Source: a virus
UHGV virus genome: UHGV-0106768
DNA length: 44,108 nucleotides
Strand: one strand, 5' to 3'
Numbering within the stretch: position 1 is the first letter of the stretch; each line of letters opens with the position of its first letter. Shown here piece after piece: positions 22,320-35,466 of this stretch. The notes below the pieces were generated by a model, which was not told where the DNA came from, did no database searches, and saw only the letters and a program-made list of their open reading frames with translations. The position numbers and the translations under genes are program-made.

Positions 22320-22320
22320 G

Positions 22321-23935: not shown

Positions 23936-23965
23936 GGCTTCAAGCACTACCAGTTTTTATGCTTT

Positions 23966-24352: not shown

Positions 24353-24594
24353 CGAAACAGGAATGTGCCATCGTGACAGCGTACACAGGGTTCGCTATGC
24401 TGAAGGGCAGCGACCTGAAATATCTGTACAATTATCTCTCCGGTCTCATCGGCAGGCCGGTGTATTCACACGAGATCCCTGCGGTCGCAGAAGCCTGCAA
24501 GGAACAAATACGAGAAGATTTCCTTGCCCTGTGCAGGAACGCAAAGGAGGCGGATGATGGATCATACAACAATGACGCTCGGCAGTCTGTTTGA
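24349..24594 (+). CDS. Hypothetical protein
   Basis: ATGA overlap with the upstream gene. 81-aa ORF. Confidence 0.5.
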   Translation: MTKQECAIVTAYTGFAMLKGSDLKYLYNYLSGLIGRPVYSHEIPAVAEACKEQIREDFLALCRNAKEADDGSYNNDARQSV

Positions 24595-26848
24595 CGGCTC
24601 CGGGGGCTTTCCGCTTGGTGGCATCCTCGCAGGGATCGAGCCAAGGTGGAGCAGCGAAATTGAACCTTTTCCGGTGCTTGTCACGCACAAGCGGCTGCCG
24701 CAGGTGCAGCACTACGGTGATGTATCTACGCTGAACGGCGCAGAGCTTCCGCCGGTGGATATCATCACCTTAGGCAGTCCTTGTCAGGACCTGTCTATTG
24801 CGGGCAAGCGTGCCGGAATCCATGACGGTGATCGGTCGAACCTGTTCTTTCAGGCGATCCGCATCATCAAAGAAATGAGGGATGCAACAAATGGACGATA
24901 TCCGCGATACTGCGTCTGGGAAAATGTCCCCGGCGCTTTCTCATCCAACGGAGGAAACGACTTCAAGGCTGTCCTCGAAGCAGTTATCGGAGTTAAAGAA
25001 AAAGGGATCGAGGTGCCTGCGCCTGAAAATCACAGATGGGCAAAATCAGACGTATATCTGGGAGACGGATGGAGCGTGGCTTACCGAGTTTTCGATGCTC
25101 AATACTGGGGTGTCCCCCAACGCAGAGCAAGAATCTACCTTGTCGCAGATTTTGCTGGCGAAAGTGCCGGAGAAATACTATTTAAGTCCGAAGGCGTGTC
25201 TTGGTATACTCCGCAGGGCTTCCGTGCGTGGCAAGGAGCTGCCGGAGGTGCTGAAGAAGGCACTGGAGAAACAGGCGGGCGGTCTGACGCTGGAGGTGGA
25301 ACCCTCTGCCTGAATACACAGGGCAACAGCGGCGTCGGCATCACCGAGGACAAGGCTCTCGCACTGGTCGCACAGGATCACGGGAATCATCCTGCCGTTC
25401 TTGCCGCAGGTTTTTCCACAGAGCATAGTGCAAAAGCACGCAGCATCGGATACGAGGAGGAAGTCTCCCCGACACTGAGAGCAGGTGTTGTTCCTGCGGC
25501 ACTCTCGGTCGAAAACCATCCGACAGACGGTCGTGTGAAGATCCGTGAGGACGACACCTGCCAGACACTTTGCAGCAGAGCCGGGACGGGCGGCAACAAT
25601 GTACCGCTTGTCGCTGAACCGATCACGCTGAAAATCAGGTCAGGCTGCGAAGGCGGCGGCAAGGGCGCTCTCTGGCAAACTGATAAATCTGCTACGCTTG
25701 CTACCAACAACAACCAGACACTCTTTCAGCCAGAGATCAAAGCCTTCGGTGTATGTAGCAAGCATTCCAATGCGATGATGTCAGACAATCCGCACAGTGG
25801 CTTTTACGAAGCGACCACGAGCAGAACGCTTGACCAGAGCGGTGGAAACTCCGTAACATCGAATCAGGGCGGCATCTGCGTGGTAGCACCTGCGCCGGAG
25901 ACATTCGATGTGCGTTTCACATCGGACGGCACGAAAAATGCTCGTGGGCATTGTTACCCGACAGACATTTCCCGATGCCTTGATACGAGCGAGGGATCGC
26001 CAGACTCGAATCACGGCGGTGTCGCTGTGGTGGCTCTTGAACCGGGGGCTGCATCACGTGTCGGCGGTCATGTGTACAGTGACGGCAAAAGCGGTACGCT
26101 TCGAGCCAATGCCGGCGATAATCAGCAGGCTGTTGTGGTCGCCGAGCCGGAGACCTATGCTCTGCAAGGCTCGATGATCGGTCGTGCCGACAAGAACGGT
26201 CCGCAGGGTGACGGCATCAATGAGGATGTGTGCTTTACGCTCAATACTTCAGACAGGCACGCTATTGCCGCACCCGATCCGTCTTTCACGATTTCCCGTG
26301 ACAATCACTTCGCCGTTTCGGAAGATATATCTGTTACGGCAGTTGCGAGAGGTCCTGCAACGGTCGCAGCCCCGGCAGATCACTACTGCACAAGCAAGAA
26401 TTCACACCACACGGTCGCTGTGCATGAGCAGGCAAACACGCTGGTCGCATCCGACTGGAAGGATCCGCCGCTTGTGAACGACCTTCCGAATGACGAGCCG
26501 GTATATATCGTAAGAAGGCTGACTCCGGTGGAGTGCGCCAGATTGCAGGGATTCCCGGACTGGTGGTGTGCCGACCTTGCGATTCCTGATCCTTCTGACG
26601 AGGAGATCGCCTTCTGGATGGAAGTATGGGAAACTTGGAGACAGATCACAAATCCCAAGGGCAAACCGAAAACGGAAAAGCAGATCCGCAAATGGCTGGC
26701 TAATCCGTACACGGACAGTGCCGAGTACAAGTTATGGGGCAACGGTGTCTCAGAGCCCGTTGTGTTCTTCGTGCTATCCGGCATTGCCTGGGCGGCACAG
26801 AATTCTGAAACTAATGCAGCAAATTGTGAACATTCTGATACTATGTAA
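24554..26848 (+). CDS. dcm: DNA (cytosine-5) methyltransferase with a variable region of about 450 aa made of tandem TRD-like repeats (probably multispecific)
   Basis: Motif I LFDGSGG, IV GSPCQDLS, VI WENVPG, VIII QRRARIYLVADF, IX RRLTPVECARLQGFP, X GNGVSEPV. AAGGAGG RBS before ATG 24554. Confidence 0.9.
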   Translation: MMDHTTMTLGSLFDGSGGFPLGGILAGIEPRWSSEIEPFPVLVTHKRLPQVQHYGDVSTLNGAELPPVDIITLGSPCQDLSIAGKRAGIHDGDRSNLFFQAIRIIKEMRDATNGRYPRYCVWENVPGAFSSNGGNDFKAVLEAVIGVKEKGIEVPAPENHRWAKSDVYLGDGWSVAYRVFDAQYWGVPQRRARIYLVADFAGESAGEILFKSEGVSWYTPQGFRAWQGAAGGAEEGTGETGGRSDAGGGTLCLNTQGNSGVGITEDKALALVAQDHGNHPAVLAAGFSTEHSAKARSIGYEEEVSPTLRAGVVPAALSVENHPTDGRVKIREDDTCQTLCSRAGTGGNNVPLVAEPITLKIRSGCEGGGKGALWQTDKSATLATNNNQTLFQPEIKAFGVCSKHSNAMMSDNPHSGFYEATTSRTLDQSGGNSVTSNQGGICVVAPAPETFDVRFTSDGTKNARGHCYPTDISRCLDTSEGSPDSNHGGVAVVALEPGAASRVGGHVYSDGKSGTLRANAGDNQQAVVVAEPETYALQGSMIGRADKNGPQGDGINEDVCFTLNTSDRHAIAAPDPSFTISRDNHFAVSEDISVTAVARGPATVAAPADHYCTSKNSHHTVAVHEQANTLVASDWKDPPLVNDLPNDEPVYIVRRLTPVECARLQGFPDWWCADLAIPDPSDEEIAFWMEVWETWRQITNPKGKPKTEKQIRKWLANPYTDSAEYKLWGNGVSEPVVFFVLSGIAWAAQNSETNAANCEHSDTM

Positions 26849-26925
26849 GCTGTTCTGTATGGGCTTTCCGTGATATGCACAATCTCAGGGGCGTAAAAGC
26901 CCCGTACACTCTACGATTTACAGTC

Positions 26926-26954
26926 TTGATATATCCGCCGTAATGGCGTAATAT
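26926..26954 (+). promoter_or_regulatory. Cassette promoter 1: TTGATA-17-TAATAT
   Basis: Exact 17-nt spacer. Conserved leader and GGAGG RBS follow, then ATG 27011. Confidence 0.7.
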
Positions 26955-27010
26955 GTGACTACCGCAAGGGAAAACCGAGCGGAATCAAAAACGAAACGGA
27001 GGATTCACAT

Positions 27011-28132
27011 ATGAAAACTTATGCAATGATCATTGGAAACCGCAAGGAACTCACAAAGAGAATCGAGGCACTCACCGGAGAGCGCAGCGTATACACCTTC
27101 ATGCCGAGATGCGCCTATGAGATCGGGGCATTCGCAGTCGAGAAGGACGGCACACTTACGGCACAGGACGATGCCGACCAGAGCGTGATCGACACCCTGA
27201 GAGCCGAGGGTATGATCGGTGGTGAGATCATCGCAGAGAGCATCAAGGCAGTCGAGCCGGAGCAGACCGATGAGACCGCAGAGCCGGAACAGCCTGCACC
27301 GCCCGTAAGCACCGATGAATGGGACGATGATGAGGATGACGACGATGAGAACAGCGTCGAGGGCGAGAATGCGGAAGCGGAAGAGCCGGAGGAGTCCGAA
27401 GAAAATGCCGATAAGTCGGAGCCTTCCGCAGAGCCAGAAGCCGCACCTCCTGCGACCGAGGATGCCTGGGATGATGAACCGGAGGATGAACCCGGCGACG
27501 AGCCGGAAGAAACCACCGAGCTTCCTGAACCGCTGACCGCAGAGATCAGCTTCCCGCTGAGCCATCACACGGTGCAGAGCCTTACAAACCTCATCTGCAT
27601 GATCCACTCCCGCGGCGCACTTCTCAGCAAGGCAACCGGCGGACAGTTTTACGCTGACAAGAGCCTCGCCGATGCGATCCTCGATGACAAGACCTTCCGC
27701 AGCATTCACGAGCTGATCGCCTACATCAGAGAATGGGAGGAGACGAATCCTGAACTGAAGGGCATCCGCTTCGCCGATGACAAGCTAATCTTTGACGGCT
27801 TCGGTGCAGCGCAGGATGCCGAAACGGTGCAGACCTTCACCAAGCTCGCCACAGCCATGAACAGGATGGCGATCACGCAGAAACGTGTGCAGGCAAAGGA
27901 TGTCGATGACAGCAACGAAAAGTACGCACTCCGCATCTGGCTGATCCGCCTTGGGCTGAACGGCGCAGACTGCAAGGTTGACCGCAAGCGCCTCATGGCT
28001 CCGCTTTCCGGACACACCGCATTCCGCAACGATGCGGAGCGTGTGCGCTGGGAGGCAAAGCAAAAGGCAAAGCGTGATGCTGCCAGAACCGAACTGACCG
28101 AGGAGGATGAAAACGATGCAGTTTCCGAATGA
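27011..28132 (+). CDS. Hypothetical protein with an acidic low-complexity region of about 90 aa and an amidoligase-like C-terminal tail
   Basis: 373-aa ORF. Acidic tract EPEQTDETAEPEQ...DDDEDDDDENSVEGENAEAEEPEESEE. The C-terminus EKYALRIWLIRLGLNG...LSGHTAFR parallels KKFAMRTWLMRMGFIG...LTGDNSFR of the neighbouring amidoligase. Confidence 0.6.
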   Translation: MKTYAMIIGNRKELTKRIEALTGERSVYTFMPRCAYEIGAFAVEKDGTLTAQDDADQSVIDTLRAEGMIGGEIIAESIKAVEPEQTDETAEPEQPAPPVSTDEWDDDEDDDDENSVEGENAEAEEPEESEENADKSEPSAEPEAAPPATEDAWDDEPEDEPGDEPEETTELPEPLTAEISFPLSHHTVQSLTNLICMIHSRGALLSKATGGQFYADKSLADAILDDKTFRSIHELIAYIREWEETNPELKGIRFADDKLIFDGFGAAQDAETVQTFTKLATAMNRMAITQKRVQAKDVDDSNEKYALRIWLIRLGLNGADCKVDRKRLMAPLSGHTAFRNDAERVRWEAKQKAKRDAARTELTEEDENDAVSE

Positions 28133-28364
28133 AAGACAGCTCAGAGCCTTGCGGGAGCGTTATCCCGCAGGAACCCGCATCCGACTGAAGCATATGGATG
28201 ACCCTTATGCACCCGTACCGCCCGGCACGGTCGGAGAGGTTCAGATGGTCGATGACGGCGGCAACATACACATGGTCTGGGAGAATGGCAGAACGCTCTC
28301 CCTTATAGACGGTGTCGATGATTTCCAAGTCATTTCTGACCGCAATGGGGGCTCCGGAAAATAA
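28116..28364 (+). CDS. DUF4314 domain protein
   Basis: GAGGAGGA RBS. RYPAGTRIRLKHMDDPYAPVPPGTVGEVQMVDDGGNIHMVWENGRTLSL is the DUF4314 pattern. Confidence 0.7.
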   Translation: MQFPNERQLRALRERYPAGTRIRLKHMDDPYAPVPPGTVGEVQMVDDGGNIHMVWENGRTLSLIDGVDDFQVISDRNGGSGK

Positions 28365-28477
28365 GAGATCCTATTCCATTGTATCCGAGTATACCATAGA
28401 ATTTCAAGTATATCAAGTGTACACATACACCAGATATGAGCAATGTATTTTCCTCGATATTCTGTGGTTTTAGCGGC

Positions 28478-28506
28478 TTGCTATATCCTCCGAAAGACGG
28501 TAACAT
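28478..28506 (+). promoter_or_regulatory. Cassette promoter 2: TTGCTA-17-TAACAT
   Basis: Exact 17-nt spacer. Leader hairpin GGGC-AAAC-GCCC at 28521-28532. GGAGG RBS. Confidence 0.7.
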
Positions 28507-28561
28507 GTGACACAACGGAAGGGCAAACGCCCACCGAAAAACCGAATCGGAGGATACCAAA

Positions 28562-29506
28562 ATGACTGAGAAAACCGCACAGCAGATCAACAGAATGAAG
28601 GAGCAGACCATCGGGGTTGAGATCGAGATGAACAACATCACCCGCAAGGCTGCCGCAAAGCTCGCCGCCAACTTCTTCGGCACCAGCCGCACCGAGTACA
28701 CCGCACACCGCAACGGCTACGAAACCTACAGCGCATGGGATGCACAGGGCAGAGAGTGGAAATTCCAGAAGGACGTCAGCATCGCAGGCCCCGACAGCGA
28801 AAAGTGCGAACTGGTCACACCGATCCTGCACTACGCAGACATCGAAACCCTGCAGGAGCTTGTGAGAAGGCTCAGAAAGGCAGGAGCGCGCAGTGATTAC
28901 ACGCGGGGATGTGGAGTCCACTGCCACATTGGAGCCCAGGGACACACACCGCAGACCTTGAGAAACCTCGCAAACCTGATGGCAAGCCACGAAACCCTGA
29001 TCGCCGAGGCAATCAGAGTAGACCAGAGCAGAATGCGCCGCTACTGCAGAACAGTTGACCCGAGATTCCTTGAACAGCTCAACCGCAAAAAGCCCACCAC
29101 GATGGCACAGCTTGCGGACATCTGGTACGGCGCACAGGGCTGCGAATACGGCAGAACCCACCACTACAACGACAGCCGCTATCACATGCTCAACCTCCAC
29201 GCTACCTTCACCAAAGGCACGGTCGAGTTCAGACTTTTCCAGTTCGCACCGCCTTCCAACGGCAAGCAGAACGGGCTCCACGCAGGCAAGCTCAAGAGCT
29301 ACATTCAGCTCTGCCTCGCAATGAGCCAGATGGCAAAGGACCTGCGGAGCGCCAGCCCCAAGGAACAGCAGAAGGAAAACAAAAAGTTCGCCATGCGGAC
29401 TTGGCTGATGAGAATGGGATTCATCGGGGACGAATTCGCAACCGCAAGGGAAACCCTCACCGAGAACCTTACAGGCGACAACAGCTTCCGCTTCGGCAGA
29501 CCTTAA
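28562..29506 (+). CDS. Amidoligase (glutamine-synthetase-like COOH-NH2 ligase family of phages and ICEs)
   Basis: N-terminus TIGVEIEMNNITRKAAAKLAANFFG and the core CGVHCHIG...GTVEFRLFQ match my recollection of the 'putative amidoligase enzyme' family. Confidence 0.7.
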   Translation: MTEKTAQQINRMKEQTIGVEIEMNNITRKAAAKLAANFFGTSRTEYTAHRNGYETYSAWDAQGREWKFQKDVSIAGPDSEKCELVTPILHYADIETLQELVRRLRKAGARSDYTRGCGVHCHIGAQGHTPQTLRNLANLMASHETLIAEAIRVDQSRMRRYCRTVDPRFLEQLNRKKPTTMAQLADIWYGAQGCEYGRTHHYNDSRYHMLNLHATFTKGTVEFRLFQFAPPSNGKQNGLHAGKLKSYIQLCLAMSQMAKDLRSASPKEQQKENKKFAMRTWLMRMGFIGDEFATARETLTENLTGDNSFRFGRP

Positions 29507-29542
29507 AGCCTGCCCTGCGGGGCGGAAGAACAAGCGGAACGT

Positions 29543-29670
29543 CACGGCGGCGCACACAGCACCCTCATCGCCACGTGTGGGGCGGAAGGGTATCCTCCGA
29601 ACACATACCCAACTCAGTCAACCGAGCCACACAGCGCAAATGTAGGCAAGGCATAAAATGCACAACATAC
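29543..29670. repeat. GC-rich intergenic S-module, copy 1 (divergent, hairpin arms apparently in inverted order)
   Basis: CACGGCGGCGCACAC...CCACGTGTGGGGCGG...GGCAAGGCATAAAATGCACAACA shares blocks with the copies at 32.2, 33.1 and 34.4 kb. Confidence 0.5.
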
Positions 29671-29709
29671 GGCACAGAATCGCCCTCGATGATCTGTTCA
29701 TTTACTCGC

Positions 29710-29738
29710 TTGATAATGCCGCCGAAAAGAGTTAACAT
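29710..29738 (+). promoter_or_regulatory. Cassette promoter 3: TTGATA-17-TAACAT
   Basis: Exact 17-nt spacer. Leader variant CTACCGCAAGG. AGGAG RBS. Confidence 0.65.
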
Positions 29739-29777
29739 GGCACTACCGCAAGGAAAAAACGCAAAGGAGAACATAGC

Positions 29778-30239
29778 ATGAACAAGAAAAAATACTACAT
29801 AGCCTACGGCAGCAACCTCAACATCCGCCAGATGCGGTTCCGCTGCCCAGGCGCAAAGCCCATCGGCATTTCCGCGATTCCTGACTACGAACTGCTCTTC
29901 AAGAGCAGCAAGACGGGAGCGTACCTCACCATCGAGCCGAAGGACGGCGGGCTTGTTCCGGTCGCCGTGTGGGAAGTGACAGCCGACGATGAGAAGCACC
30001 TCGACATCTACGAGGGCTACCCGAACTTCTACTACAAAAAAGAAGTACGCCTGCCGATCAAGCTGGCAAACGGCAAGACCAAAAAGGTCACGGCATTTGT
30101 CTACATCATGCACGAGGAGCGTGAGATTGCGATCCCGTCAATGACCTACATCCGCACCTGCGAGGAAGGCTACCGCAACTTCGGATTTGATGTGAAGTAC
30201 CTTGACAGGGCATACATGAGAAGCACAAAGGAGGACTGA
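29778..30239 (+). CDS. Gamma-glutamyl cyclotransferase / AIG2-like protein
   Basis: YYIAYGSNLNIRQMRFRCPGA N-terminus, and ...YEGYPNFY, typical of the GGCT/AIG2 fold. Confidence 0.7.
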   Translation: MNKKKYYIAYGSNLNIRQMRFRCPGAKPIGISAIPDYELLFKSSKTGAYLTIEPKDGGLVPVAVWEVTADDEKHLDIYEGYPNFYYKKEVRLPIKLANGKTKKVTAFVYIMHEEREIAIPSMTYIRTCEEGYRNFGFDVKYLDRAYMRSTKED

Positions 30240-30241
30240 AA

Positions 30242-30445
30242 ATGAAAGAACAGGTTTTTGAGAAGCGTACATGTCCGCAATGCGGACGCACCTACACCGA
30301 GCGTCCTGCCCTATCCCGCTACGACAACGACACGATCATCTGCCCGGACTGCGGCACGAGGGAGGCACTCGAAAGCATGGGCATCAGCATCGAGGAACAG
30401 GACAAGATCCTCGGCATCATCCACGAGAAGTACAACGGCGAATAA
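30242..30445 (+). CDS. Small zinc-ribbon protein
   Basis: CPQCG...CPDCG pairs. Starts 2 nt after the upstream stop. Confidence 0.55.
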   Translation: MKEQVFEKRTCPQCGRTYTERPALSRYDNDTIICPDCGTREALESMGISIEEQDKILGIIHEKYNGE

Positions 30446-30516
30446 GGCGACATAAAGGGGCGTTACAGCCCCTTTCCGCATTCTCAGGGATAACTTTATC
30501 CCCCACTTTCCGGGCG

Positions 30517-30565
30517 TGACACGGCGCGTTCTGGCGCAAACTGTGGGCTTGTGTATATGTACCTG
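30517..30565. repeat. S-module, partial copy
   Basis: TGACACGGCGCGTTCTGGCGCAAACTGTGGGCTTGTGTATATGTACC matches the 3' half of the other copies. Confidence 0.5.
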
Positions 30566-30617
30566 TTCAGCTTGCTGAAAACGGCGATTCTTCTACGATT
30601 TATTTTGCATATAGGCG

Positions 30618-30646
30618 TGGACATATCGCCGGGATCATGGTAATAT
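30618..30646 (+). promoter_or_regulatory. Cassette promoter 4: TGGACA-17-TAATAT
   Basis: Exact 17-nt spacer. AT-rich upstream block TTTATTTTGCA. Leader hairpin GGGC-AGACA-GCCC. Confidence 0.65.
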
Positions 30647-30704
30647 GCTACACAACGGCAGGGGCAGACAGCCCACCGGAATTCATAACATGGAGGATAC
30701 GAAC

Positions 30705-31175
30705 ATGAACGAAAGCTACTTTGAGGAGATGACCTTCCAGTGCGCCGCCTATGAACGCGCCAAAAAGGAGCGCGCCGAGCGCAAGGCTCAGATTGCCGAA
30801 GCCCACGGCTACGACAGCCCGGAGATGGACGCTTGGTACGCTGAGGAGAAGGCGGCGGGTCCTTACCCCTACAGCGGCGGTGAGATGAAAGCCTACTGGG
30901 TGTACAAGATGCGCCGCGAGAACGACGGTGACGAGTTCGAGATGAGCGATTACTGCTGGGACAAGGAATTCCACGATTTCATCGAAACGCTCCGCAAGCT
31001 AGGCATCACCGAGTTCACGATCACCAATCAGAGCACGGCGCTGATGGAGAACATCTACGGATTTATTGCAGAAGGCTGCACGATGGTCGGAACGCACACC
31101 ATCACCAAGAAGAGCCTGCGCTGGAGCGAGGAAGAATACGAAACGGCACAGGGCATCCTTTTCAAGGTGAACTGA
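30705..31175 (+). CDS. Hypothetical protein
   Basis: GGAGGATACGAAC-ATG. 156-aa ORF. Confidence 0.6.
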   Translation: MNESYFEEMTFQCAAYERAKKERAERKAQIAEAHGYDSPEMDAWYAEEKAAGPYPYSGGEMKAYWVYKMRRENDGDEFEMSDYCWDKEFHDFIETLRKLGITEFTITNQSTALMENIYGFIAEGCTMVGTHTITKKSLRWSEEEYETAQGILFKVN

Positions 31176-31183
31176 TATCGACA

Positions 31184-31207
31184 GGAGCAGGGCTTCGGCT
31201 CTGCTCC
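31184..31207 (+). terminator. GC-rich TTCG-loop hairpin after a cassette gene
   Basis: GGAGCAGGGC-TTCG-GCTCTGCTCC. Near-identical copy at 33632-33655. A C/T-rich tail follows, but no clean U-tract. Confidence 0.5.
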
Positions 31208-31293
31208 CCCTCCCCCTTTTCCTCATGTGTAACTCCTACAATACGAAAGGCTGAGATCGGCGATTCTTCTACGTTTTATTTTGCACATAGGCG

Positions 31294-31322
31294 TGGACTT
31301 ATCAGCAGGATCATGGTAATAT
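31294..31322 (+). promoter_or_regulatory. Cassette promoter 5: TGGACT-17-TAATAT
   Basis: Exact 17-nt spacer. Upstream block shared with promoter 4. Leader hairpin GGGC-AGAAC-GCCT. Confidence 0.65.
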
Positions 31323-31377
31323 GTGACACAACGGAAGGGCAGAACGCCTACCGAAAAACGAAACGGAGGATAACACC

Positions 31378-31698
31378 ATGAACCCCTACACACTGAGAAA
31401 GAGCCTGAACCTGATTGATGCCAACACGGCGATCACCCGCGAGGACTTCGAGAGCCTCTTCTGCAAGACTGCAGAGCGTGTCACCTTTACCTTCAACGGT
31501 TGGGACGGCAAGAGCTATGATGGCGAGAGCCGCAGCGGTTACGTTTACCGCACCATCATCGAGGGCTACGAGAATGTGAGATTCGTTAAGGTCGGCAAGG
31601 GACTGCATTACATCGATGAGGACAGCAGCATTACCGAGAAGGCTACGGGCATCGCCCACAAGGAAGCAGAGTGGCTGGTCGATGTGAAGAGAGCATAA
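31378..31698 (+). CDS. Hypothetical protein
   Basis: GGAGGATAACACC-ATG. 106-aa ORF. Confidence 0.6.
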   Translation: MNPYTLRKSLNLIDANTAITREDFESLFCKTAERVTFTFNGWDGKSYDGESRSGYVYRTIIEGYENVRFVKVGKGLHYIDEDSSITEKATGIAHKEAEWLVDVKRA

Positions 31699-31763
31699 GC
31701 AAAACAGCGGAGCCCTTCCTGCGGGGAGGGCTTACCGCAGAAAAAACATGGAGGTTTACGAAC

Positions 31764-32147
31764 ATGAGTACGAATTCAAGAGTCGGAATCCTGCATCAGG
31801 ACGGCGCCACGGAGACAATCTACTGCCATTGGGACGGCTACCCCGAACACCAGATGCCCATCCTCACCGAGCATTATAACACCGCCGAGAAGGTCAAGGC
31901 ACTGCTTGCCCTTGGAGACATCAGCATCCTCGGCGAGCGCCTTGCTCCCGATGCGGATGAGCCGCACAGCTTTGAAAAGCCTGCCGATGGTGTGACGGTT
32001 GCTTACCACCGCGACCGCAAAGAGCCGATGCAGCCTGCGGTCACCCACAAGAGCGTTGTTTCCCTGATGAGCGATGACTGGGGCATTCCGTATTACTACC
32101 TTTTCGATGAGGAAAAAGGAGCATGGCTTCCGCCGACCGAGGACTGA
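31764..32147 (+). CDS. Hypothetical protein
   Basis: GGAGG RBS before ATG 31764. 127-aa ORF. Confidence 0.6.
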   Translation: MSTNSRVGILHQDGATETIYCHWDGYPEHQMPILTEHYNTAEKVKALLALGDISILGERLAPDADEPHSFEKPADGVTVAYHRDRKEPMQPAVTHKSVVSLMSDDWGIPYYYLFDEEKGAWLPPTED

Positions 32148-32170
32148 TAGGTTCAGCCCTGCGGTGCTGA

Positions 32171-32290
32171 CTTGCCCCACGTTGTCCTTTGTGCGGTTTT
32201 CCTGCGATAAGCTTGCCCCTGCGGAAAGCCGCCTCACACGGCGCGTTTGTGTGCCTCCTGTGGGCTTGGTGCTATGTATACAACAAATGG
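32171..32290. repeat. S-module, copy 3
   Basis: CTTGCCCCACGTTG...GCTTGCCCCTGCGGAAAGCCGCCTCACACGGCGCGTTTGTGTGCCTCCTGTGGGCTTGG...TATACAACAA. Confidence 0.6.
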
Positions 32291-32327
32291 CGCAGATACG
32301 CCGATTTTGTTCTGAACATTTAGCCGC

Positions 32328-32356
32328 TTGCTATTCCGGAAAGATCATGGTAATAT
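32328..32356 (+). promoter_or_regulatory. Cassette promoter 6: TTGCTA-17-TAATAT
   Basis: Exact 17-nt spacer. Leader identical in its core to that of promoter 2 (ACACAACGGAAGGGCAAACGCCCACCGAA). Confidence 0.7.
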
Positions 32357-32412
32357 GCTACACAACGGAAGGGCAAACGCCCACCGAATACAAAACACGG
32401 AGGTAAACCACC

Positions 32413-32778
32413 ATGACAAAGAAGGAAATGAAAGCCGCAGTTGACAAGCTGAAGATGCTGCAGAACGGCAAAGCCGCCCTTGAGGGAATGACCGAAGCGG
32501 ACTGCCTTGAGCTTTTCGGGATCAGCAGAGCGCAGGCACTTGCAAACACAAACGCCGCCCTTGCCAAAACCGAGCAGGAGATTTTCAGAGCCGAGCATCC
32601 GCTGACAGGCATCGACAAACAGCTCTTCGAGATCGCAGCAAAGCACCTGATCACGGTGCAGGAGCGCGGAGACCTTGAAGCCCGCCACTGCGACAGCGAG
32701 GACTTCATCGAGGTTTCGGTCTGGGGGCTGGAAGCCGCCCTCAAGGATGCCTACGAGGCAGGACGCAAGAGCAAGTAA
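32413..32778 (+). CDS. Hypothetical protein
   Basis: GGAGGTAAACCACC-ATG. 121-aa ORF. Confidence 0.6.
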   Translation: MTKKEMKAAVDKLKMLQNGKAALEGMTEADCLELFGISRAQALANTNAALAKTEQEIFRAEHPLTGIDKQLFEIAAKHLITVQERGDLEARHCDSEDFIEVSVWGLEAALKDAYEAGRKSK

Positions 32779-32843
32779 CCAAACGGAACAGCGCAGCCCT
32801 TCCGCAGGGAGGAGGGGCTGCCAATCCCGAAGGAGGAAAGAAC

Positions 32844-33023
32844 ATGGATACATACGCACAGCTTGAAATGCTGACCGCAGTCATCGCAAACCTGTCGGCC
32901 ACGGGAACATGGACGGAGCGAGAAGTGATGGAAACGCTGCTGGATGTCTTTGAACCGAAGGAGCTTGAACAGCTCGGCTACGGCGACTGCGTGAACGCAT
33001 ACTTGGAAGAGTACGGCGGATAG
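32844..33023 (+). CDS. 59-aa hypothetical protein (below the ORF-track cut-off)
   Basis: GAAGGAGGA RBS. My own translation is MDTYAQLEMLTAVIANLSATGTWTEREVMETLLDVFEPKELEQLGYGDCVNAYLEEYGG. Confidence 0.5.
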   Translation: MDTYAQLEMLTAVIANLSATGTWTEREVMETLLDVFEPKELEQLGYGDCVNAYLEEYGG

Positions 33024-33034
33024 CGACGACACAC

Positions 33035-33145
33035 GCACCACGTTGCCTCGTGTGGGGCGGTGCCGGGGAGATGCGTACAGCTTGCCCCTGCGAAAAGCCG
33101 CCTTACACGGCGCGTTCTGGCGCGTCCTATACGATGTACAATTCC
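33035..33145. repeat. S-module, copy 4
   Basis: CACCACGTTGCCTCGTGTGGGGCGG...GCTTGCCCCTGCGAAAAGCCGCCTTACACGGCGCGTTCTGGCGCG. An 11-bp stem joins 33050-60 and 33098-108. Confidence 0.6.
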
Positions 33146-33193
33146 GCCCGACTTCCCGCCTCATGTTTGTCACATTTATTTTGCAGACAGACG

Positions 33194-33222
33194 TGGACTT
33201 TTCTGCGAAAAGACGGTAATAT
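33194..33222 (+). promoter_or_regulatory. Cassette promoter 7: TGGACT-17-TAATAT
   Basis: Exact 17-nt spacer. Leader variant GTGACTACCGCAAGAGAAGCGG, as for promoter 1. Confidence 0.65.
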
Positions 33223-33269
33223 GTGACTACCGCAAGAGAAGCGGAATCAATCAAAAGGAGCGAATCTAC

Positions 33270-33623
33270 ATGAAAATTCTGGTATGCGAACCCGGCAAGC
33301 ACCCCTACGTCAAGGACATCGAGTCGGGGCTGGAGAACCTTCAGCACGAGGTGGACGGACTGATTCAGGCCCTCTACCCATTTTCCGAAGAGGCGGCTGT
33401 TGTGTGCAACGAAGAAGGGCTGTTCCGCGATGACCTCGAATGGAACAGAACGGTCGATCCCTATGGTCCGATCAAGGGAACATTCTTCATTTGTGGGCTC
33501 GGCTTTGAAGATTTTACAGGACTGACCGATGAACAGATCGAAAAGTACACTAAGCTCTTCTGGCCTCCTGAGCTTTTCATCCCGACACCGAACGGCATGG
33601 TGGTGCTTCACATTGTGGAATGA
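33270..33623 (+). CDS. DUF3846 domain protein
   Basis: MKILVCEPGKHPYVKDIESGLENLQHEVDGLIQALYPF...VVCNEEG...GTFFICG pattern. Confidence 0.7.
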   Translation: MKILVCEPGKHPYVKDIESGLENLQHEVDGLIQALYPFSEEAAVVCNEEGLFRDDLEWNRTVDPYGPIKGTFFICGLGFEDFTGLTDEQIEKYTKLFWPPELFIPTPNGMVVLHIVE

Positions 33624-33631
33624 CCGCAACA

Positions 33632-33655
33632 GGGGCAGGGCTTCGGCTCTGCTCC
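33632..33655 (+). terminator. GC-rich TTCG-loop hairpin after a cassette gene (copy of 31184-31207)
   Basis: GGGGCAGGGC-TTCG-GCTCTGCTCC, with two G-U pairs. Confidence 0.5.
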
Positions 33656-33726
33656 GCACCATTCCCCGGTCATAATGTACACAACTGAACGCCGAAAAAT
33701 GCAGAAATGATCGTGATTACTCACGC

Positions 33727-33755
33727 TTGATAATGTAGGCAAGAAGAGTTATACT
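33727..33755 (+). promoter_or_regulatory. Cassette promoter 8: TTGATA-17-TATACT
   Basis: Exact 17-nt spacer. Leader hairpin GGGC-GGAAA-GCCC. Confidence 0.7.
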
Positions 33756-33812
33756 GTGTACAACGGAAGGGCGGAAAGCCCAGCCGAAAACGAAAATGCG
33801 GAGGTACACACC

Positions 33813-33992
33813 ATGAAAACGAAGCAGGAACTGATCGAGAAGGCAAAGAAAGAGTGGGGCGAGACTTGGAACGAGGGCATGATCGAGTACGATGCCGAGT
33901 ACAACGAGTACATCGTCTGGGTAGGCAAGCCGGACATCTACAAAGCCTTCTTCGATGCCGACACCCTCAGATGCATTGGCACGAAGTGCTGA
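33813..33992 (+). CDS. 59-aa hypothetical protein
   Basis: GGAGGTACACACC-ATG. The track ORF 33756..33992 contains it. Confidence 0.55.
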   Translation: MKTKQELIEKAKKEWGETWNEGMIEYDAEYNEYIVWVGKPDIYKAFFDADTLRCIGTKC

Positions 33993-34000
33993 GAACAACC

Positions 34001-34018
34001 GCCGCCCTTCGGGGCGGC
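34001..34018 (+). terminator. GC-rich TTCG-loop hairpin
   Basis: GCCGCCC-TTCG-GGGCGGC. No U-tract. Confidence 0.4.
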
Positions 34019-34047
34019 ACAACACCAATACTAAGGAGGACATTTAC

Positions 34048-34321
34048 ATGAGCGAGAACACAGAAAAGCGCGATGCAGCCGAAGAACTAAGAACTTACCG
34101 ATGCACAGGCAGACCGCAACGATGACATCTACGAGGCAGCTTTTGAATTCTGCAAGGTGCTGACCGAGAACCCCGACCTCGAATGGGACATGGCGTTCCT
34201 CGGTGAGATCGCCGACCTTGCCGCTGGCATCATGACCGAGCAGGGACACAAGGTGCGGTTCCCCAGTGTGGTCACCGAGCAGGACGGCACGCAGTACATT
34301 GAAGAATACTACGGCGGCTGA
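34048..34321 (+). pseudogene. Small cassette gene disrupted by a frameshift near codon 14
   Basis: A strong AAGGAGGA RBS precedes ATG 34048. Frame 1 (MSENTEKRDAAEELRTYR...) stops at 34123-25. The +1 frame is open from 34091 to TGA 34319-21 and reads LTDAQADRNDDIYEAAFEFCKVLTENPDLEWDMAFLGEIADLAAGIMTEQGHKVRFP... Confidence 0.55.
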
Positions 34322-34361
34322 TCGGCAAAACGGAGCAGTCCTTCTGCGGAGGGGCTGTTCC

Positions 34362-34485
34362 ACGCCACGTTCGCTTGTGTGGGGGGCTTACGGCTTTCTG
34401 CGGATATCTTGCCCCGCGATAAAAGCCGCCCACACGGCGCATTTGTGTGCCTCCTGCGGCAAGGCATAATATGTACAACAACCGA
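34362..34485. repeat. S-module, copy 5
   Basis: ACGCCACGTTCGCTTGTGTGGGGGGC...CTTGCCCCGCGATAAAAGCCGCCCACACGGCGCATTTGTGTGCCTCCTGCGGCAAGGCATAATATGTACAACAA. Confidence 0.6.
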
Positions 34486-34522
34486 CAAAAAATCACCTTG
34501 CACATTCTGGTAGTTTAGCCGC

Positions 34523-34551
34523 TTGATATATCTGCCGAAAAGAGTTATAGT
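34523..34551 (+). promoter_or_regulatory. Cassette promoter 9: TTGATA-17-TATAGT
   Basis: Exact 17-nt spacer. Leader GTGTACAACGGAACGGGAAACCGAG. Confidence 0.7.
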
Positions 34552-34607
34552 GTGTACAACGGAACGGGAAACCGAGCCGAAAACTACGAAAGAACGAGGT
34601 AAACACT

Positions 34608-34844
34608 ATGTGGCACGAAGGCACGATTCTGGCACCGACCAAGGAAGGCAAGACGGTGGTTCACTACTGGGCAAAGGTCTACGACGAGGGCAGCCAGTAC
34701 GGCATCAACGAGGGCAGAATCAGTAAACTGACACTCAAGGAGAATGGCAAGGTCATCTACAACTACGACAGAGGCGAGGATGTACCCGAGCAGAACGAGG
34801 CTGCGGAGATTGCCCTTGCGATCCTGATGTACGAGTACAAGTAA
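34608..34844 (+). CDS. Hypothetical protein
   Basis: 78-aa ORF after cassette promoter 9. GAGGT RBS. Confidence 0.6.
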   Translation: MWHEGTILAPTKEGKTVVHYWAKVYDEGSQYGINEGRISKLTLKENGKVIYNYDRGEDVPEQNEAAEIALAILMYEYK

Positions 34845-34933
34845 ATAGAACGGTCGGTGGGCGGTAGCATTAAGCCGCCCATCCAAACCAAGACGGACAC
34901 ACATATAAATTCAAGGTGGATATACATAGGAGA

Positions 34934-34961
34934 GGCTTGCAGTTTTGCAGGCCTTTTCTTT
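34934..34961 (+). terminator. Rho-independent terminator closing the accessory array
   Basis: GGCTTGCA-GTTT-TGCAGGCC (one G-U pair), followed by TTTTCTTT. Confidence 0.6.
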
Positions 34962-34992
34962 ATGCACATTTTTATTGGAAGGAGTGATGCGG

Positions 34993-35466
34993 ATGGCTCA
35001 GAGAGGCAGAAAACCAACGCCTACGGCGATCAAAGAGCTGGAAGGCAATCCGGGCAAGCGTCCGCTGAATGATGCAGAGCCGAAGCCGGAACGCAAGGCA
35101 CCGCCCTGTCCGAAGTGGCTGGAGCCCGAAGCAAAAAAGGAATGGCGCAGGCTGTCAAAGCAACTGGAGCAGATTGGTGTGCTGACCGAGGTCGATCAGG
35201 CGGCATTCGCATCCTACTGTCAGGCATACGCACGATGGAAAGAAGCCGAGGAATTCATGACCCAGCACGGCACGATCGTAAAAACAAAATCAGGTTACTG
35301 GCAGCAGGTTCCGCAGGTATCCATTGCGCAAACTTATCTGAAGATCATGAACAAGATCGCAGAGCAGTTTGGCCTGACCCCGGCGGCAAGAAGCCGTATC
35401 ACTGCCGGCGCAGATATGAAAAACGCTGCCGTTGACGATATGGATGAACTTCTCGGAGGTGGCTGA
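34993..35466 (+). CDS. terS: Terminase small subunit, P27 family
   Basis: MAQRGRKPTPTAIKELEGNPGKRPLN N-terminus typical of the P27 family. GGAAGGAG RBS. Confidence 0.85.
   Translation: MAQRGRKPTPTAIKELEGNPGKRPLNDAEPKPERKAPPCPKWLEPEAKKEWRRLSKQLEQIGVLTEVDQAAFASYCQAYARWKEAEEFMTQHGTIVKTKSGYWQQVPQVSIAQTYLKIMNKIAEQFGLTPAARSRITAGADMKNAAVDDMDELLGGG

What the first reader, a model, noticed from the sequence alone, without database searches (positions are those of the whole stretch)
26849..34992. ICE-type accessory repertoire inside a phage late-early junction
Several proteins here belong to families I associate mainly with the accessory or leading regions of Clostridial conjugative elements, not with phages. 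They are:
- the sigma-like protein 2675..3397
- DUF4314
- DUF3846
- the amidoligase
- the GGCT-like protein
- the multi-TRD dcm
- the ParB-methylase

In conjugative plasmids and ICEs such genes are thought to be expressed first on entry and to counter host defences. Finding the same set in a capsid-encoding element, wrapped in strong repeated promoters, suggests exchange of an 'entry-protection' toolkit between ICEs and phages. The array is a good hunting ground for new anti-defence proteins.
Basis: inference. Interest (0 to 1): 0.55.

Follow-up and report, generated by a model that had tools for sequence, protein, structure and literature searches.

The report
Accessory gene-cassette array in a gut phage
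The stretch between the DNA-methylase genes and the packaging genes of a gut Clostridia phage is a row of about 14 small, separately promoted accessory genes, two of which belong to families found mostly in conjugative elements next to anti-restriction genes; it is a plausible but untested anti-defence island of a kind already described in principle.

Summary
Window 26849-34992 lies between a 774-aa multi-TRD Dcm and TerS. It encodes DUF4314, Amidoligase_2, a GGACT/AIG2 cyclotransferase, DUF3846, DUF7698, DUF6900, DUF7678 and several orphans. Nine sigma-70-type promoters, each with a conserved hairpin leader, drive these genes.

- **DUF3846** is mainly an ICE domain. Of the 60 genome loci of at least 10 kb, 45-49 are ICEs and 2 are phages. 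In 23 of all 80 loci it sits in one ORF with ArdA.
- **DUF4314** occurs in both phages and ICEs.
- **The amidoligase and the GGCT** are phage-typical: 75 and 45 phage records against 4 and 8 plasmid records, none conjugative, and none in the ICE loci.

The element is a Ca. Heliusvirales-like siphovirus with no conjugation genes. The head of the array (acidic protein, DUF4314, amidoligase, GGCT, Zn-ribbon) keeps its order across this phage order. The tail varies from 2 to about 11 genes among close relatives, with breakpoints in the repeated intergenic units. The set is therefore long resident in phages, not a recent ICE import.

Sharing of counter-defence domains between phages and ICEs is already published. 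An anti-defence function is plausible but untested. Interest is moderate to low.

The parts
2675..3397 (+). Sigma-like protein. It is outside the array but is named in the finding.
   Evidence: Sigma70_r4_2 E 7e-10. TIGR02937 matches region 4 only. tblastn finds 2 phage fragments and 0 plasmids.
22264..23592 (+). ParB_N-N6_N4 DNA methyltransferase
   Evidence: Pfam. It is 47-58% identical and in the same position in L001, L002, L003, L005 and L096.
24524..26848 (+). Multi-TRD C5 cytosine methyltransferase. The likely start is near 24557, giving about 763 aa.
   Evidence: PF00145 E 4e-37 in two stretches. TIGR00675 dcm. About ten xTL motifs in residues 258-640. Relatives are 722-764 aa.
26926..27010 (+). 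Promoter P1 (TTGATA-17-TAATAT) with type-B hairpin leader
   Evidence: Leader fold -10.1 kcal/mol against -2.6 for shuffles.
27011..28132 (+). Acidic 373-aa protein. It has an N-terminal domain, a disordered linker (residues 76-170, 45% D/E) and a C-terminal domain. It shares only the C-terminal ~70 aa with the amidoligase.
   Evidence: No Pfam family. phrog_2443 E 2e-34. BLASTP against the amidoligase gives E 6e-10 over residues 269-339. AF2 model. No significant PDB fold match. 906 homologues, none with a Pfam domain.
28116..28364 (+). DUF4314 protein. It overlaps the preceding gene by 17-26 nt, so the two are probably translationally coupled.
   Evidence: PF14192 E 7e-29. phrog_3782. The same overlap is seen in relatives.
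28388..28416 (-). Antisense sigma-70-like promoter (TTGATA-17-TATACT, TG-extended) that points back into the DUF4314/acidic-protein operon
   Evidence: It is conserved in place and orientation in close relatives and in NatCom_23091.
28478..28561 (+). Promoter P2 (TTGCTA-17-TAACAT) with type-A hairpin leader
28562..29506 (+). Amidoligase_2 (glutamine-synthetase-like COOH-NH2 ligase)
   Evidence: PF12224 E 9e-56 over the full profile. phrog_2443 E 1e-112. 75 phage records against 4 plasmid records.
29710..29777 (+). Promoter P3 (TTGATA-17-TAACAT) with a short type-B leader that has no stable hairpin
29778..30239 (+). GGACT/AIG2-like gamma-glutamyl cyclotransferase. The N-terminal YGSNL motif is present.
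   Evidence: PF06094 E 1e-12 and PF13772. phrog_2520 E 5e-53. 45 phage records against 8 plasmid records.
30242..30445 (+). 67-aa zinc-ribbon protein. It starts 2 nt after the GGCT stop, so it is in the same transcription unit.
   Evidence: All Zn-ribbon Pfam hits are below their cut-offs. phrog_2945 E 2e-22. It keeps this position in L001, L002 and L011-L018.
30618..30704 (+). Promoter P4 (TGGACA-17-TAATAT) with type-A hairpin leader
30705..31175 (+). DUF7698 protein (156 aa)
   Evidence: PF24753 E 4e-13. phrog_21141.
31294..31377 (+). Promoter P5 (TGGACT-17-TAATAT) with type-A hairpin leader
31378..31698 (+). 106-aa orphan protein
   Evidence: No Pfam or PHROG family. It is present in relatives.
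31764..32147 (+). 127-aa protein of phrog_1987
32328..32412 (+). Promoter P6 (TTGCTA-17-TAATAT) with type-A hairpin leader
32413..32778 (+). DUF6900 protein
   Evidence: PF21841 E 2e-19.
32844..33023 (+). 59-aa acidic orphan (pI 4.1)
   Evidence: An RBS and ORF can be read. 71% identical in L004. No family.
33194..33269 (+). Promoter P7 (TGGACT-17-TAATAT) with type-B hairpin leader
33270..33623 (+). Solo DUF3846 protein (117 aa)
   Evidence: PF12957 E 5e-29. AF2 pLDDT 94. No PDB fold match. Relatives are mostly in ICEs and often fused to ArdA.
33727..33812 (+). Promoter P8 (TTGATA-17-TATACT) with type-A hairpin leader
33813..33992 (+). 59-aa orphan
34049..34321 (+). Frameshifted copy of a 90-aa gene, caused by a 1-nt insertion near 34091
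   Evidence: Alignment with the intact copies in L004 and L015. The same frameshift is present in independent assemblies.
34523..34607 (+). Promoter P9 (TTGATA-17-TATAGT) with hairpin leader
34608..34844 (+). DUF7678 protein
   Evidence: PF24726 E 9e-29. phrog_4709.
34987..35466 (+). Terminase small subunit, the right-hand boundary of the array
   Evidence: PF05119 E 3e-31.

Best explanation
**What it is**
The region is a lineage-typical accessory-gene island of a temperate, Ca. Heliusvirales-like siphovirus of gut Clostridia. It sits between the DNA-modification genes (ParB-methylase, multispecific Dcm) and the terminase genes.

**How it is built**
- There are about nine moron-like transcription units.
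- Each unit has a host sigma-A-type promoter, a 40-58-nt leader that starts with a two-tier hairpin and ends in a strong GGAGG ribosome-binding site, one or two small and mostly acidic genes, and a G+C-rich hairpin.
- The head of the island is conserved and probably works as one system: acidic protein + DUF4314, then Amidoligase_2, then GGCT + Zn-ribbon.
- The tail is a fast-changing set of single-domain proteins, gained and lost by recombination in the repeated promoter/leader/spacer DNA.

**What it most likely does (inferred, not shown)**
- The products most likely act on the host, as counter-defence or host-takeover factors that complement the neighbouring methylases.
- The strongest link is DUF3846. 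In ICEs it is a module of ArdA anti-restriction proteins, or it sits next to oriT-proximal mobC-relaxase genes.
- For the enzyme pair, I infer that the amidoligase makes an ATP-dependent amide (gamma-glutamyl-type) bond on a host or phage target. The cyclotransferase would then reverse or trim that bond.

**Shown:** the gene families, the architecture, the conservation, the cassette turnover and the ICE/phage distribution.
**Inferred:** the function, the timing of expression and the enzyme chemistry.
For: - **Phage identity.** The window carries TerS, TerL, portal, ClpP protease, HK97 capsid, DUF2800 nuclease, Enc34-type SSB, PolA and an SNF2 helicase. TerL, portal and MCP are 47-62% identical to NatCom_991, NatCom_23091 and Javan105. 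No ICE hallmark is found in the window.
- **Conserved head.** The same gene order is seen in L001 and L002, partly in L003, and in eight close relatives.
- **Variable tail.** It holds 2, 4, 6, 7-8, 9 or about 11 genes between the Zn-ribbon gene and TerS. blastn breakpoints against L004 fall in the intergenic repeats. Promoter-leader 'ghosts' without a gene lie at 29645-29672 and 34458-34484.
- **Promoters and leaders.**. Eight of nine leaders fold to -5.7 to -13 kcal/mol, against about -3 for shuffles, and their stems differ in sequence.
- **Link to anti-restriction.** DUF3846 shares an ORF with ArdA in 23 of 80 loci, and 45-49 of the 60 long loci are ICEs. A DUF4314-DUF3846 fusion lies next to the relaxase in L009.
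- **Acidity.** 11 of 13 array proteins have pI below 6. The median is 4.9, against 5.5 for the other window proteins and 8.4 for the other small ones (p = 0.035).
- **Not a known defence system.** PADLOC gives no credible hit.
- **Published frame.** PMC5512222 and PMC11541004.
Against: - No array protein matches a known anti-defence family such as ArdA, Ocr or an Acr.
- The two structure models gave no informative fold match.
- The timing of expression is unknown. Sigma-A promoters fit expression from the prophage just as well as immediate-early expression.
- The hairpins after the genes mostly lack U-tracts. The terminator scan shows no excess: 10 found against 11.1 expected.
- The amidoligase and GGCT have no tie to ICEs or to defence, and they could serve a metabolic or structural role.
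- The excess of acidic proteins is modest.
- The ICE/phage census rests on one domain, on 80 loci, and on tblastn with hallmark proteins from only two ICEs.
Confidence: 0.5

Rival explanations
1. The cassettes are lysogenic-conversion or superinfection-exclusion morons. They are expressed from the resident prophage by host RNA polymerase and protect or alter the lysogen, so they act in defence or host fitness rather than counter-defence.
For: - The promoter-gene-hairpin units lie between conserved modules and use sigma-A-type promoters that need no phage factor.
- Ca. Heliusvirales are 97.9% temperate (PMC11283538).
- A prophage study files the same amidoligase and GGCT genes under 'host metabolism, phage defence' (PMC11318856).
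- A conserved antisense promoter suggests regulated expression.
Against: - PADLOC gives no credible hit.
- No protein looks like a membrane or exclusion protein in the translations.
- DUF3846 is fused to the anti-restriction protein ArdA in ICEs.
- The island sits next to orphan methylases, which protect the incoming element.
Confidence: 0.22
2. The conserved head (acidic protein, DUF4314, amidoligase, GGCT, Zn-ribbon) is an enzymatic modification pathway that serves the phage itself and is unrelated to host immunity. Examples would be peptide tagging of a virion or replication protein, cell-wall precursor modification, or small-molecule synthesis. The tail genes would then be miscellaneous.
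For: - The head keeps its order across phages whose TerL is only 55-62% identical.
- The two enzymes are basic (pI 9-9.5), unlike the other array proteins.
- The acidic protein and the amidoligase share a C-terminal module, which suggests a complex or a common partner.
- As relayed by PMC11318856, Iyer 2009 predicted cell-wall or peptide modification for phage amidoligases.
Against: - Streptococcus phage Javan105 keeps only the acidic-protein homologue, DUF4314 and a short fragment with the shared C-terminal module. It lacks a full-length amidoligase and the GGCT.
- In L005-L008 the enzyme block lies on the opposite strand, and no DUF4314 homologue was detected there. The head is therefore not an indivisible core pathway.
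- No substrate or partner is known.
Confidence: 0.15
3. The whole set is an ICE 'entry-protection' toolkit that this capsid-encoding element acquired fairly recently by horizontal transfer from conjugative elements.
For: - DUF3846 and DUF4314 are shared with ICEs.
- One phage DUF3846 (L048) nests among ICE sequences in a crude NJ tree, so some transfer does occur.
Against: - The array is syntenic across an order-level phage lineage.
- The window's DUF3846 is only 42-53% identical to ICE copies, and it groups with other phage copies.
- Amidoligase, GGCT, Zn-ribbon, DUF7698, DUF6900 and DUF7678 occur only in the phage loci among the 80 sampled.
- The promoter-leader motif occurs at about 0.3 per kb, on the + strand only, in close phages. 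In ICE loci it is at background, about 0.03 per kb on both strands.
- G+C content shows no anomaly: 0.53-0.58 in the array against about 0.52 elsewhere.
Confidence: 0.05

Closest known systems
Polyvalent-protein / early-effector domain repertoire shared by phages and conjugative elements (Iyer, Burroughs, Anand, Aravind 2017; PMC5512222)
   Same: The same logic applies: domains occur as modules of large ICE proteins (ArdA-DUF3846, DUF4314-DUF3846) and as solo proteins in phages. That paper already reports about 40% of such proteins in T4SS elements and about 35% in phages or prophages.
   Different: Here the domains are solo genes with their own promoters, not parts of one giant polypeptide that is packaged or transferred. 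The terms 'amidoligase' and 'cyclotransferase' do not occur in that paper, and 'DUF3846' does not occur in it either.
Anti-defence islands in the leading region of conjugative plasmids (Samuel et al. 2024; PMC11541004)
   Same: Both show clusters of small genes beside orphan methyltransferases, with many uncharacterised families. That paper notes phage-associated annotations in nearly 10% of leading-region families. In 13 ICE loci DUF3846 lies just upstream of mobC-relaxase.
   Different: Leading regions are defined by oriT and by first entry as ssDNA, and they use ssDNA promoters. This array has ordinary double-stranded -35/-10 promoters. No oriT or relaxase was found in the window, and its order of entry is unknown.
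Phage morons (promoter-gene-terminator units inserted between conserved phage genes; own knowledge, Hendrix and colleagues 2000)
   Same: Each unit has its own promoter and a downstream hairpin. Content varies between close relatives, and the units lie between conserved modules.
   Different: This is a tandem array of about nine units that share homologous promoter and leader sequences. Part of the array (the head) is conserved across an order rather than sporadic. The hairpins mostly lack U-tracts.
Phage amidoligase / gamma-glutamyl cyclotransferase genes (PHROG 2443 and 2520; noted in C. clostridioforme LM41 prophages, PMC11318856; predicted by Iyer et al. 2009, which could not be read here)
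   Same: The pattern is the same: two phrog_2443 genes separated by one ORF, then GGCT two ORFs further on. These are orfs 35, 37 and 39 in LM41 phi13alpha and orfs 206, 208 and 210 in phi13epsilon.
   Different: This work shows that the first 'amidoligase' is not an amidoligase. It shares only the C-terminal ~70-aa module. The ORF between the two is DUF4314.
Multispecific C5 methyltransferases of Bacillus phages SPR, phi3T and rho11s (own knowledge; SPR is cited in PMC11541004, ref. 36)
   Same: A single Dcm core carries several target-recognising domains in its variable region, is encoded by a temperate phage, and is taken to protect against many restriction systems.
   Different: This protein is much larger (763-774 aa, with about ten TL motifs). 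Its specificities are unknown.
Integron gene-cassette arrays
   Same: Both are tandem arrays of single-gene units whose number and content vary between close relatives, with repeats at the unit boundaries.
   Different: There is no integrase and no attC site, and every unit has its own promoter. Exchange would have to rely on homologous recombination between promoter/leader repeats. This is an analogy only.

Membership tests
Ca. Heliusvirales (de Jonge et al. 2024, PMC11283538) | [quoted passage not shown] | tested here: met
   DUF2800/PD-(D/E)XK, Enc34-type SSB, PolA, HNH, SNF2 helicase, TerL, portal, ClpP protease and HK97 MCP are all present. Which window gene corresponds to the 'endonuclease' marker is my assumption.
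Ca. Heliusvirales | TerL inside the heliusvirus clade (HMM bit-score above 700 with the authors' model) | not testable with these tools
   The authors' HMM is not available. As a proxy, TerL is 61-62% identical to NatCom_991 and NatCom_23091, and portal and MCP are 47-53% identical.
Integrative conjugative element (for the window as a whole) | Relaxase, coupling protein and a T4SS (VirB4, PrgI and others) | tested here: not met
   No such Pfam family among about 50 ORFs. tblastn with 18 ICE hallmark proteins from L009 and L010 finds nothing at E <= 1e-3. The window covers 44 kb of a 45.6-kb contig.
DUF3846 (PF12957) | Score above the gathering cut-off over the whole profile | tested here: met
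   100.9 bits against 27.5, profile positions 1-102 of 103.
DUF4314 (PF14192) | Score above the gathering cut-off | tested here: met
   100 bits against 27, profile positions 2-69 of 69.
Amidoligase_2 (PF12224, glutamine-synthetase-like ligases) | Full-length profile match | tested here: met
   190 bits against 22, profile positions 1-244 of 245. This applies to 28562-29506 only.
Amidoligase_2 | Membership of the upstream 373-aa protein, which PHROG labels 'amidoligase' | tested here: not met
   No Pfam hit at E <= 0.01. Similarity to the amidoligase is limited to residues 269-339. Only insignificant glutamine-synthetase fold hits were found, with E above 1.6.
Amidoligase_2 | ATP-dependent ligase activity and an intact active site | not testable with these tools
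   The motifs GVEIE, ELVTP, HCH and EFR can be read in the translation. Their catalytic role is recalled from memory, not tested.
GGACT/AIG2 gamma-glutamyl cyclotransferase (PF06094) | Profile match above the cut-off, plus the N-terminal YGS(N/L) motif | tested here: met
   49.1 bits against 22.8. 'YGSNL' lies at residues 10-14. Activity was not tested.
Multispecific (multi-TRD) phage C5 methyltransferase | A single catalytic core with several target-recognising domains in the variable region | tested here: inconclusive
   The PF00145 match is split between the N and C termini around a variable region of about 450 aa. About ten xTL motifs are present. TRDs were not aligned to characterised ones, and the specificities are unknown.
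Known anti-defence proteins (ArdA, Ocr, Acr and others) | Sequence or fold similarity to a characterised inhibitor | tested here: not met
   No such Pfam, PHROG or NCBIfam hit. The two models have no significant PDB match. No dedicated anti-defence library was available.
Known anti-phage defence systems (PADLOC) | A match to a defence-system protein model | tested here: not met
   Only sub-threshold zinc-ribbon noise for the 67-aa protein.
Moron | Own promoter, own terminator, and variable presence between related phages | tested here: inconclusive
   Promoters are present. Variable presence is met for the tail. Hairpins exist, but intrinsic-terminator-like sites show no excess. The head is conserved rather than sporadic.
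Plasmid/ICE leading-region anti-defence island | Lies next to oriT on the first-transferred side and is expressed first on entry | not testable with these tools
   No oriT or relaxase was found in the window. Phage genome ends and the order of entry are unknown.

The most novel reading that the evidence does not exclude
The repeated promoter / 5'-hairpin-leader units might be more than expression signals. They could form a recombinase-free cassette-exchange system that lets Ca. Heliusvirales phages shuffle counter-defence genes, and they could place all cassettes under one regulator. The conserved head (acidic protein with the shared C-terminal module, DUF4314, amidoligase, GGCT, Zn-ribbon) could be a new enzymatic counter-defence mechanism. 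It would attach and trim an amide (gamma-glutamyl-type) tag on a host immune protein or signalling molecule.
Probability: 0.12. Interest if true: 0.7.

Novelty: new member of a known kind. Interest (0 to 1): 0.33.

Why it matters
- Ca. Heliusvirales are among the most widespread temperate phages of the human gut (PMC11283538). Anti-defence biology is almost unexplored for phages of strictly anaerobic Clostridia.
- The array gives a well-delimited shortlist of about 20 small proteins across relatives. Two conserved enzymes and one domain (DUF3846) are tied to ArdA in ICEs. Natural presence/absence variants can guide screens.
- The work corrects two likely annotation errors:
  - The upstream 'amidoligase' is not an amidoligase.
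  - The set is not an ICE import.
- It adds no new principle. The sharing of such domains between phages and conjugative elements is already established.

Tried and rejected
1. Megablast of the array and of the head-gene block against GenBank phages found only a 77% match over the amidoligase, or nothing. No close published relative exists.
2. Iyer et al. 2009 (PMC3268129) could not be read. Its content is cited only as relayed by PMC11318856.
3. Full-text searches for DUF4314 or DUF3846, and for amidoligase together with anti-defense, found nothing useful.
4. A sequence search of the PDB with the amidoligase found no match.
5. Structure models gave no informative fold.
   - Acidic protein: only insignificant glutamine-synthetase hits.
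6. Rfam scan of the region gave only a chance-level hit.
7. Covariance model of the leader was abandoned.
   - The MAFFT alignments put the stems out of register.
   - I used per-sequence folding and motif counts instead.
It worked with six sequences.
9. For the sigma-like protein, tblastn found 2 phage fragments and 0 plasmids, which is too little to place it.
10. I considered and rejected these readings:
    - the element is an ICE or a phage-ICE hybrid;
    - the array is compositionally foreign;
    - the array proteins are known defence systems.
11. PLSDB is a poor test for Clostridial ICEs, because they are chromosomal. I therefore based the ICE/phage statement for DUF3846 on the genome scan.

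Full report
**1. What is in the sequence**

All credible genes of the 44-kb window lie on the + strand. Pfam gives the following map.
- Left end: an HTH regulator and a sigma-like protein with region 4 only.
- Replication block: DUF2800 nuclease, Enc34-type SSB, PolA, DUF932, HNH, SNF2 helicase, a MazF-like toxin and a D5-type primase-helicase.
- Metabolism and modification: SAM synthetase, NrdD/NrdG, a ParB-N6_N4 methylase, a methylase remnant and a 774-aa C5 methylase.
- The region of the finding.
- Packaging and head genes: TerS, TerL with a LAGLIDADG insert, portal, ClpP protease, HK97 capsid and head-tail genes.

The window is a siphovirus genome segment. It equals ENA contig ERZ1303852 NODE_435, with the same coordinates. 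No conjugation gene is present.

**2. Check of the observation**

The family assignments hold, all well above Pfam's cut-offs.
- DUF4314: 7e-29.
- Amidoligase_2: 9e-56.
- GGACT/AIG2: 1e-12.
- DUF3846: 5e-29.
- ParB-methylase.
- Dcm, with its catalytic core split around a variable region of about 450 aa that carries about ten xTL motifs.

The array also holds:
- DUF7698, DUF6900 and DUF7678;
- a 67-aa zinc-ribbon protein;
- three orphans of 106, 59 and 59 aa;
- a 127-aa protein of phrog_1987;
- a frameshifted copy of a 90-aa gene.

The 'strong repeated promoters' are real.
- TTGMTA-N17-TAWMMTG gives 7 hits against 0.37 expected, all inside 26926-34552.
- Read directly, there are nine + strand promoters with a 17-nt spacer.
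- They come in two upstream types, TTGMTA and TGGACW, combined with two leader types, ACAACGGAAGGGC... and ACTACCGCAAG....
- Eight of the nine leaders fold into a two-tier hairpin close to the 5' end, at -5.7 to -13 kcal/mol against about -3 for shuffles. The stems differ in sequence: CGG/CCG or CCGC/GCGG for the outer stem, and GGGC/GCCC, CGG/CCG or GG/CC for the inner stem.
- No Rfam family matches.

**3. Which element this is**

- TerL, portal and capsid are 47-62% identical to the Ca. Heliusvirales phages NatCom_991 and NatCom_23091, and to Streptococcus phage Javan105.
- The window carries all nine marker categories of that order (PMC11283538).
- That paper reports the order as 97.9% temperate, with C5 methylases in 67% of genomes and SAM synthetase in 58.9%.

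**4. The array is a lineage feature with a conserved head and a variable tail**

- In NatCom_991 and NatCom_23091 the order is: methylase, large Dcm-like protein, homologue of the acidic protein, DUF4314, amidoligase, GGCT, small Zn-ribbon protein, a few small ORFs, TerL.
- Javan105 keeps adenine methylase, Dcm, 'virulence-related protein' (the acidic-protein homologue) and DUF4314, followed by terminase.
- Eight close relatives from gut metagenomes, found through a 90%-identical DUF4314, keep the head unchanged.
- Between the Zn-ribbon gene and TerS those relatives carry 2, 4, 6, 7-8 or 9 genes. The nine-gene version equals the window. L004 has three further genes of 92 aa, 120 aa and DUF6809.
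- blastn of L004 against the window is collinear. The unmatched blocks are bounded by the repeated intergenic DNA.
- Two promoter-leader 'ghosts' without a gene remain at 29645-29672 and 34458-34484.
- The same families co-occur, in another arrangement, in a second heliusvirus type (L005-L008). There DUF3846 follows the helicase, and the amidoligase-GGCT block lies on the opposite strand.

**5. Phage or ICE families?**

Every named family has a PHROG family. tblastn record counts, GenBank phages against PLSDB plasmids:

| Family | Phage records | Plasmid records | Conjugative |
|---|---|---|---|
| Amidoligase | 75 | 4 | 0 |
| GGCT | 45 | 8 | 0 |
| DUF4314 | 159 (97 Streptococcus phages) | 15 | 5 |
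| DUF3846 | 18 | 5 | 0 |

PLSDB under-represents Clostridial ICEs, which are chromosomal. Two of the plasmid hits were in fact ICEs inside megaplasmids.
- In Monoglobus, a 305-aa DUF4314-DUF3846 fusion lies between a TOPRIM primase and MobC-relaxase-VirD4-PrgI-VirB4.
- In Vescimonas, a 590-aa ArdA-DUF3846 protein follows VirB4, DUF4315, DUF4366, TopoIII and DUF3849.

I then scanned one genome per species with a DUF3846 alignment. This gave 513 relatives, of which the 80 most similar to the phage protein were kept.
- Classified by tblastn with ICE and phage hallmark proteins, the 80 split into 49 ICE, 11 probable ICE, 3-4 phage and 17 unclassified.
- Among the 60 loci of at least 10 kb the split is 45 ICE, 4 probable ICE, 2 phage and 9 unclassified.
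- 23 loci have ArdA in the same ORF as DUF3846.
- 45 have an ORF longer than 170 aa.
- 13 have mobC less than 3 kb downstream on the same strand.

By contrast, the amidoligase, GGCT, Zn-ribbon, DUF7698, DUF6900, DUF7678 and the orphans hit only the phage loci in that sample.

A crude NJ tree puts the heliusvirus DUF3846 sequences in one clade, apart from the ICE sequences. The one exception is L048. The tree has no support values.

The promoter-leader motifs occur at about 0.3 per kb, on the + strand only, in close phages. In 1.17 Mb of ICE and other loci they are at background level on both strands.

**6. The conserved head**

- PHROG labels the first protein (373 aa) 'amidoligase', but it has no Amidoligase_2 match.
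- It resembles the true amidoligase only over a C-terminal module of about 70 aa, NEKYA-R-WL-RLG...SG..AFR (E 6e-10). That module lies outside the Pfam domain of the enzyme.
- The AF2 model shows an N-terminal domain, a disordered linker of residues 76-170 with 45% D/E, and a confident C-terminal domain. The linker varies in length among 906 homologues.
- No PDB fold match is significant.
- DUF4314 overlaps the 3' end of this gene in every relative.
- GGCT and the Zn-ribbon gene are 2 nt apart.
- A sigma-70-like antisense promoter between DUF4314 and the amidoligase is conserved, even in NatCom_23091.

**7. Most likely function**

Shown:
- the architecture, the conservation and the cassette turnover;
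- the tie between DUF3846/DUF4314 and ICE anti-restriction or relaxase-proximal genes;
- the position beside three DNA methylases and a SAM synthetase;
- the mostly small, acidic products (11 of 13 with pI below 6);
- no credible match to known defence systems.

Inferred:
- The island encodes counter-defence or host-takeover factors transcribed by host RNA polymerase.
- The 5' hairpin plus GGAGG leader gives stable, well-translated mRNAs. This is my own inference, by analogy with 5' stabilisers in Firmicutes.
- The amidoligase makes an amide bond that the cyclotransferase removes or trims.

Nothing here shows when the array is expressed. 'Expressed first on entry' remains a hypothesis, and expression from the prophage is a serious rival.

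**8. Comparison with what is known, and novelty**

- Phages and conjugative elements are already known to draw on one pool of early counter-defence domains, as solo genes or fused (PMC5512222).
- Plasmid leading regions are known anti-defence islands rich in orphan methylases and unknown families, some with phage annotations (PMC11541004).
- The amidoligase - x - amidoligase - x - GGCT pattern has been listed in C. clostridioforme prophages without analysis (PMC11318856).
- In the searchable library I found no description of the array as a conserved-head, variable-tail cassette island of Ca. Heliusvirales with shared promoter-leader units. I also found no report that DUF3846 is mostly an ArdA-linked ICE domain.
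- I rate the finding as a new member of a known kind: useful as a target list, not surprising in principle.

**9. Limits**

- The ICE/phage census covers one domain and 80 loci. It uses hallmark proteins from two ICEs and a few phages, so 17 loci stay unclassified and phages unlike heliusviruses would be missed.
- No equivalent genome-wide census could be run for the other families.
- Promoter and hairpin calls are consensus-based.
- The tree is crude.
- No function was tested.

Noticed in passing
window 28388-28416 (- strand): A strong sigma-70-like antisense promoter (TTGATA-17-TATACT, TG-extended) lies between DUF4314 and the amidoligase and points back into the DUF4314/acidic-protein operon. 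It is conserved in place and orientation in all close relatives and in the distant NatCom_23091 (L002 14445-14473). It may drive a regulatory antisense RNA.
   Followed up: partly
window 34049-34321: A 1-nt insertion near 34091 frameshifts a 90-aa gene that is intact in L004 and L015. The same frameshift occurs in independent JGI and Logan assemblies (L100, L101), so it is a real allele and not an assembly error.
   Followed up: yes
window 23576-24352: Relatives carry a PAPS-reductase-like gene (267 aa) and a 259-aa N6_N4 methylase between the ParB-methylase and DUF7736/Dcm. The window has only a 119-aa ORF and a 128-aa C-terminal methylase fragment, which points to a deletion of about 800 nt.
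   Followed up: partly
window 35466-38132: TerL is 888 aa and contains a LAGLIDADG homing-endonuclease-like insert that looks like an intein. Close relatives L011, L012 and L017 have a 703-aa TerL without it.
   Followed up: no
window 4391-5233 and 5363-5638: The DUF2800 PD-(D/E)XK nuclease is split into two ORFs (profile positions 1-249 and 294-368) with a gap of about 130 nt. This could be a disrupted gene or a small insertion.
   Followed up: no
window 12822-13388: A MazF/PemK-like toxin domain protein (188 aa) lies inside the replication module, between the SNF2 helicase and the primase-helicase. No obvious antitoxin gene was noted.
   Followed up: no
window 29645-29672 and 34458-34484: Promoter-like -10 elements plus leader starts (GGCAAGGCATAAAATGCACAACATACGG and GGCAAGGCATAATATGTACAACAACCG) have no gene behind them. 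They look like scars of lost cassettes.
   Followed up: partly
window 30514-30561, 32199-32278, 33068-33147, 34395-34459: A second intergenic repeat family (CTTGCCCCTGCG..GCCGCC.CACACGGCGCG.T..GTG) lies between the hairpin of one unit and the promoter of the next. Its function is unknown.
   Followed up: no
L011, L012, L015, L017 (about 8221-8876 in L011): Some close relatives have an extra pair inserted between Dcm and the acidic protein: an Arc-like repressor on the - strand and a YAcAr/SLOG-family protein. They also have a 302-aa acidic protein that lacks the 70-aa poly-acidic insert of the window.
   Followed up: no
L005-L008 (for example L005 13276-16174): In a second heliusvirus type the amidoligase...GGCT block lies on the strand opposite to all other phage genes, which suggests an inverted segment. 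The Heliusvirales paper reports DNA invertases as common in the order.
   Followed up: no
L012 18471-20249: A group II intron-type reverse transcriptase/maturase (RVT_1, Intron_maturas2, HNH) interrupts the head-gene block just after the portal gene in one close relative.
   Followed up: no
[not shown]
   Followed up: partly
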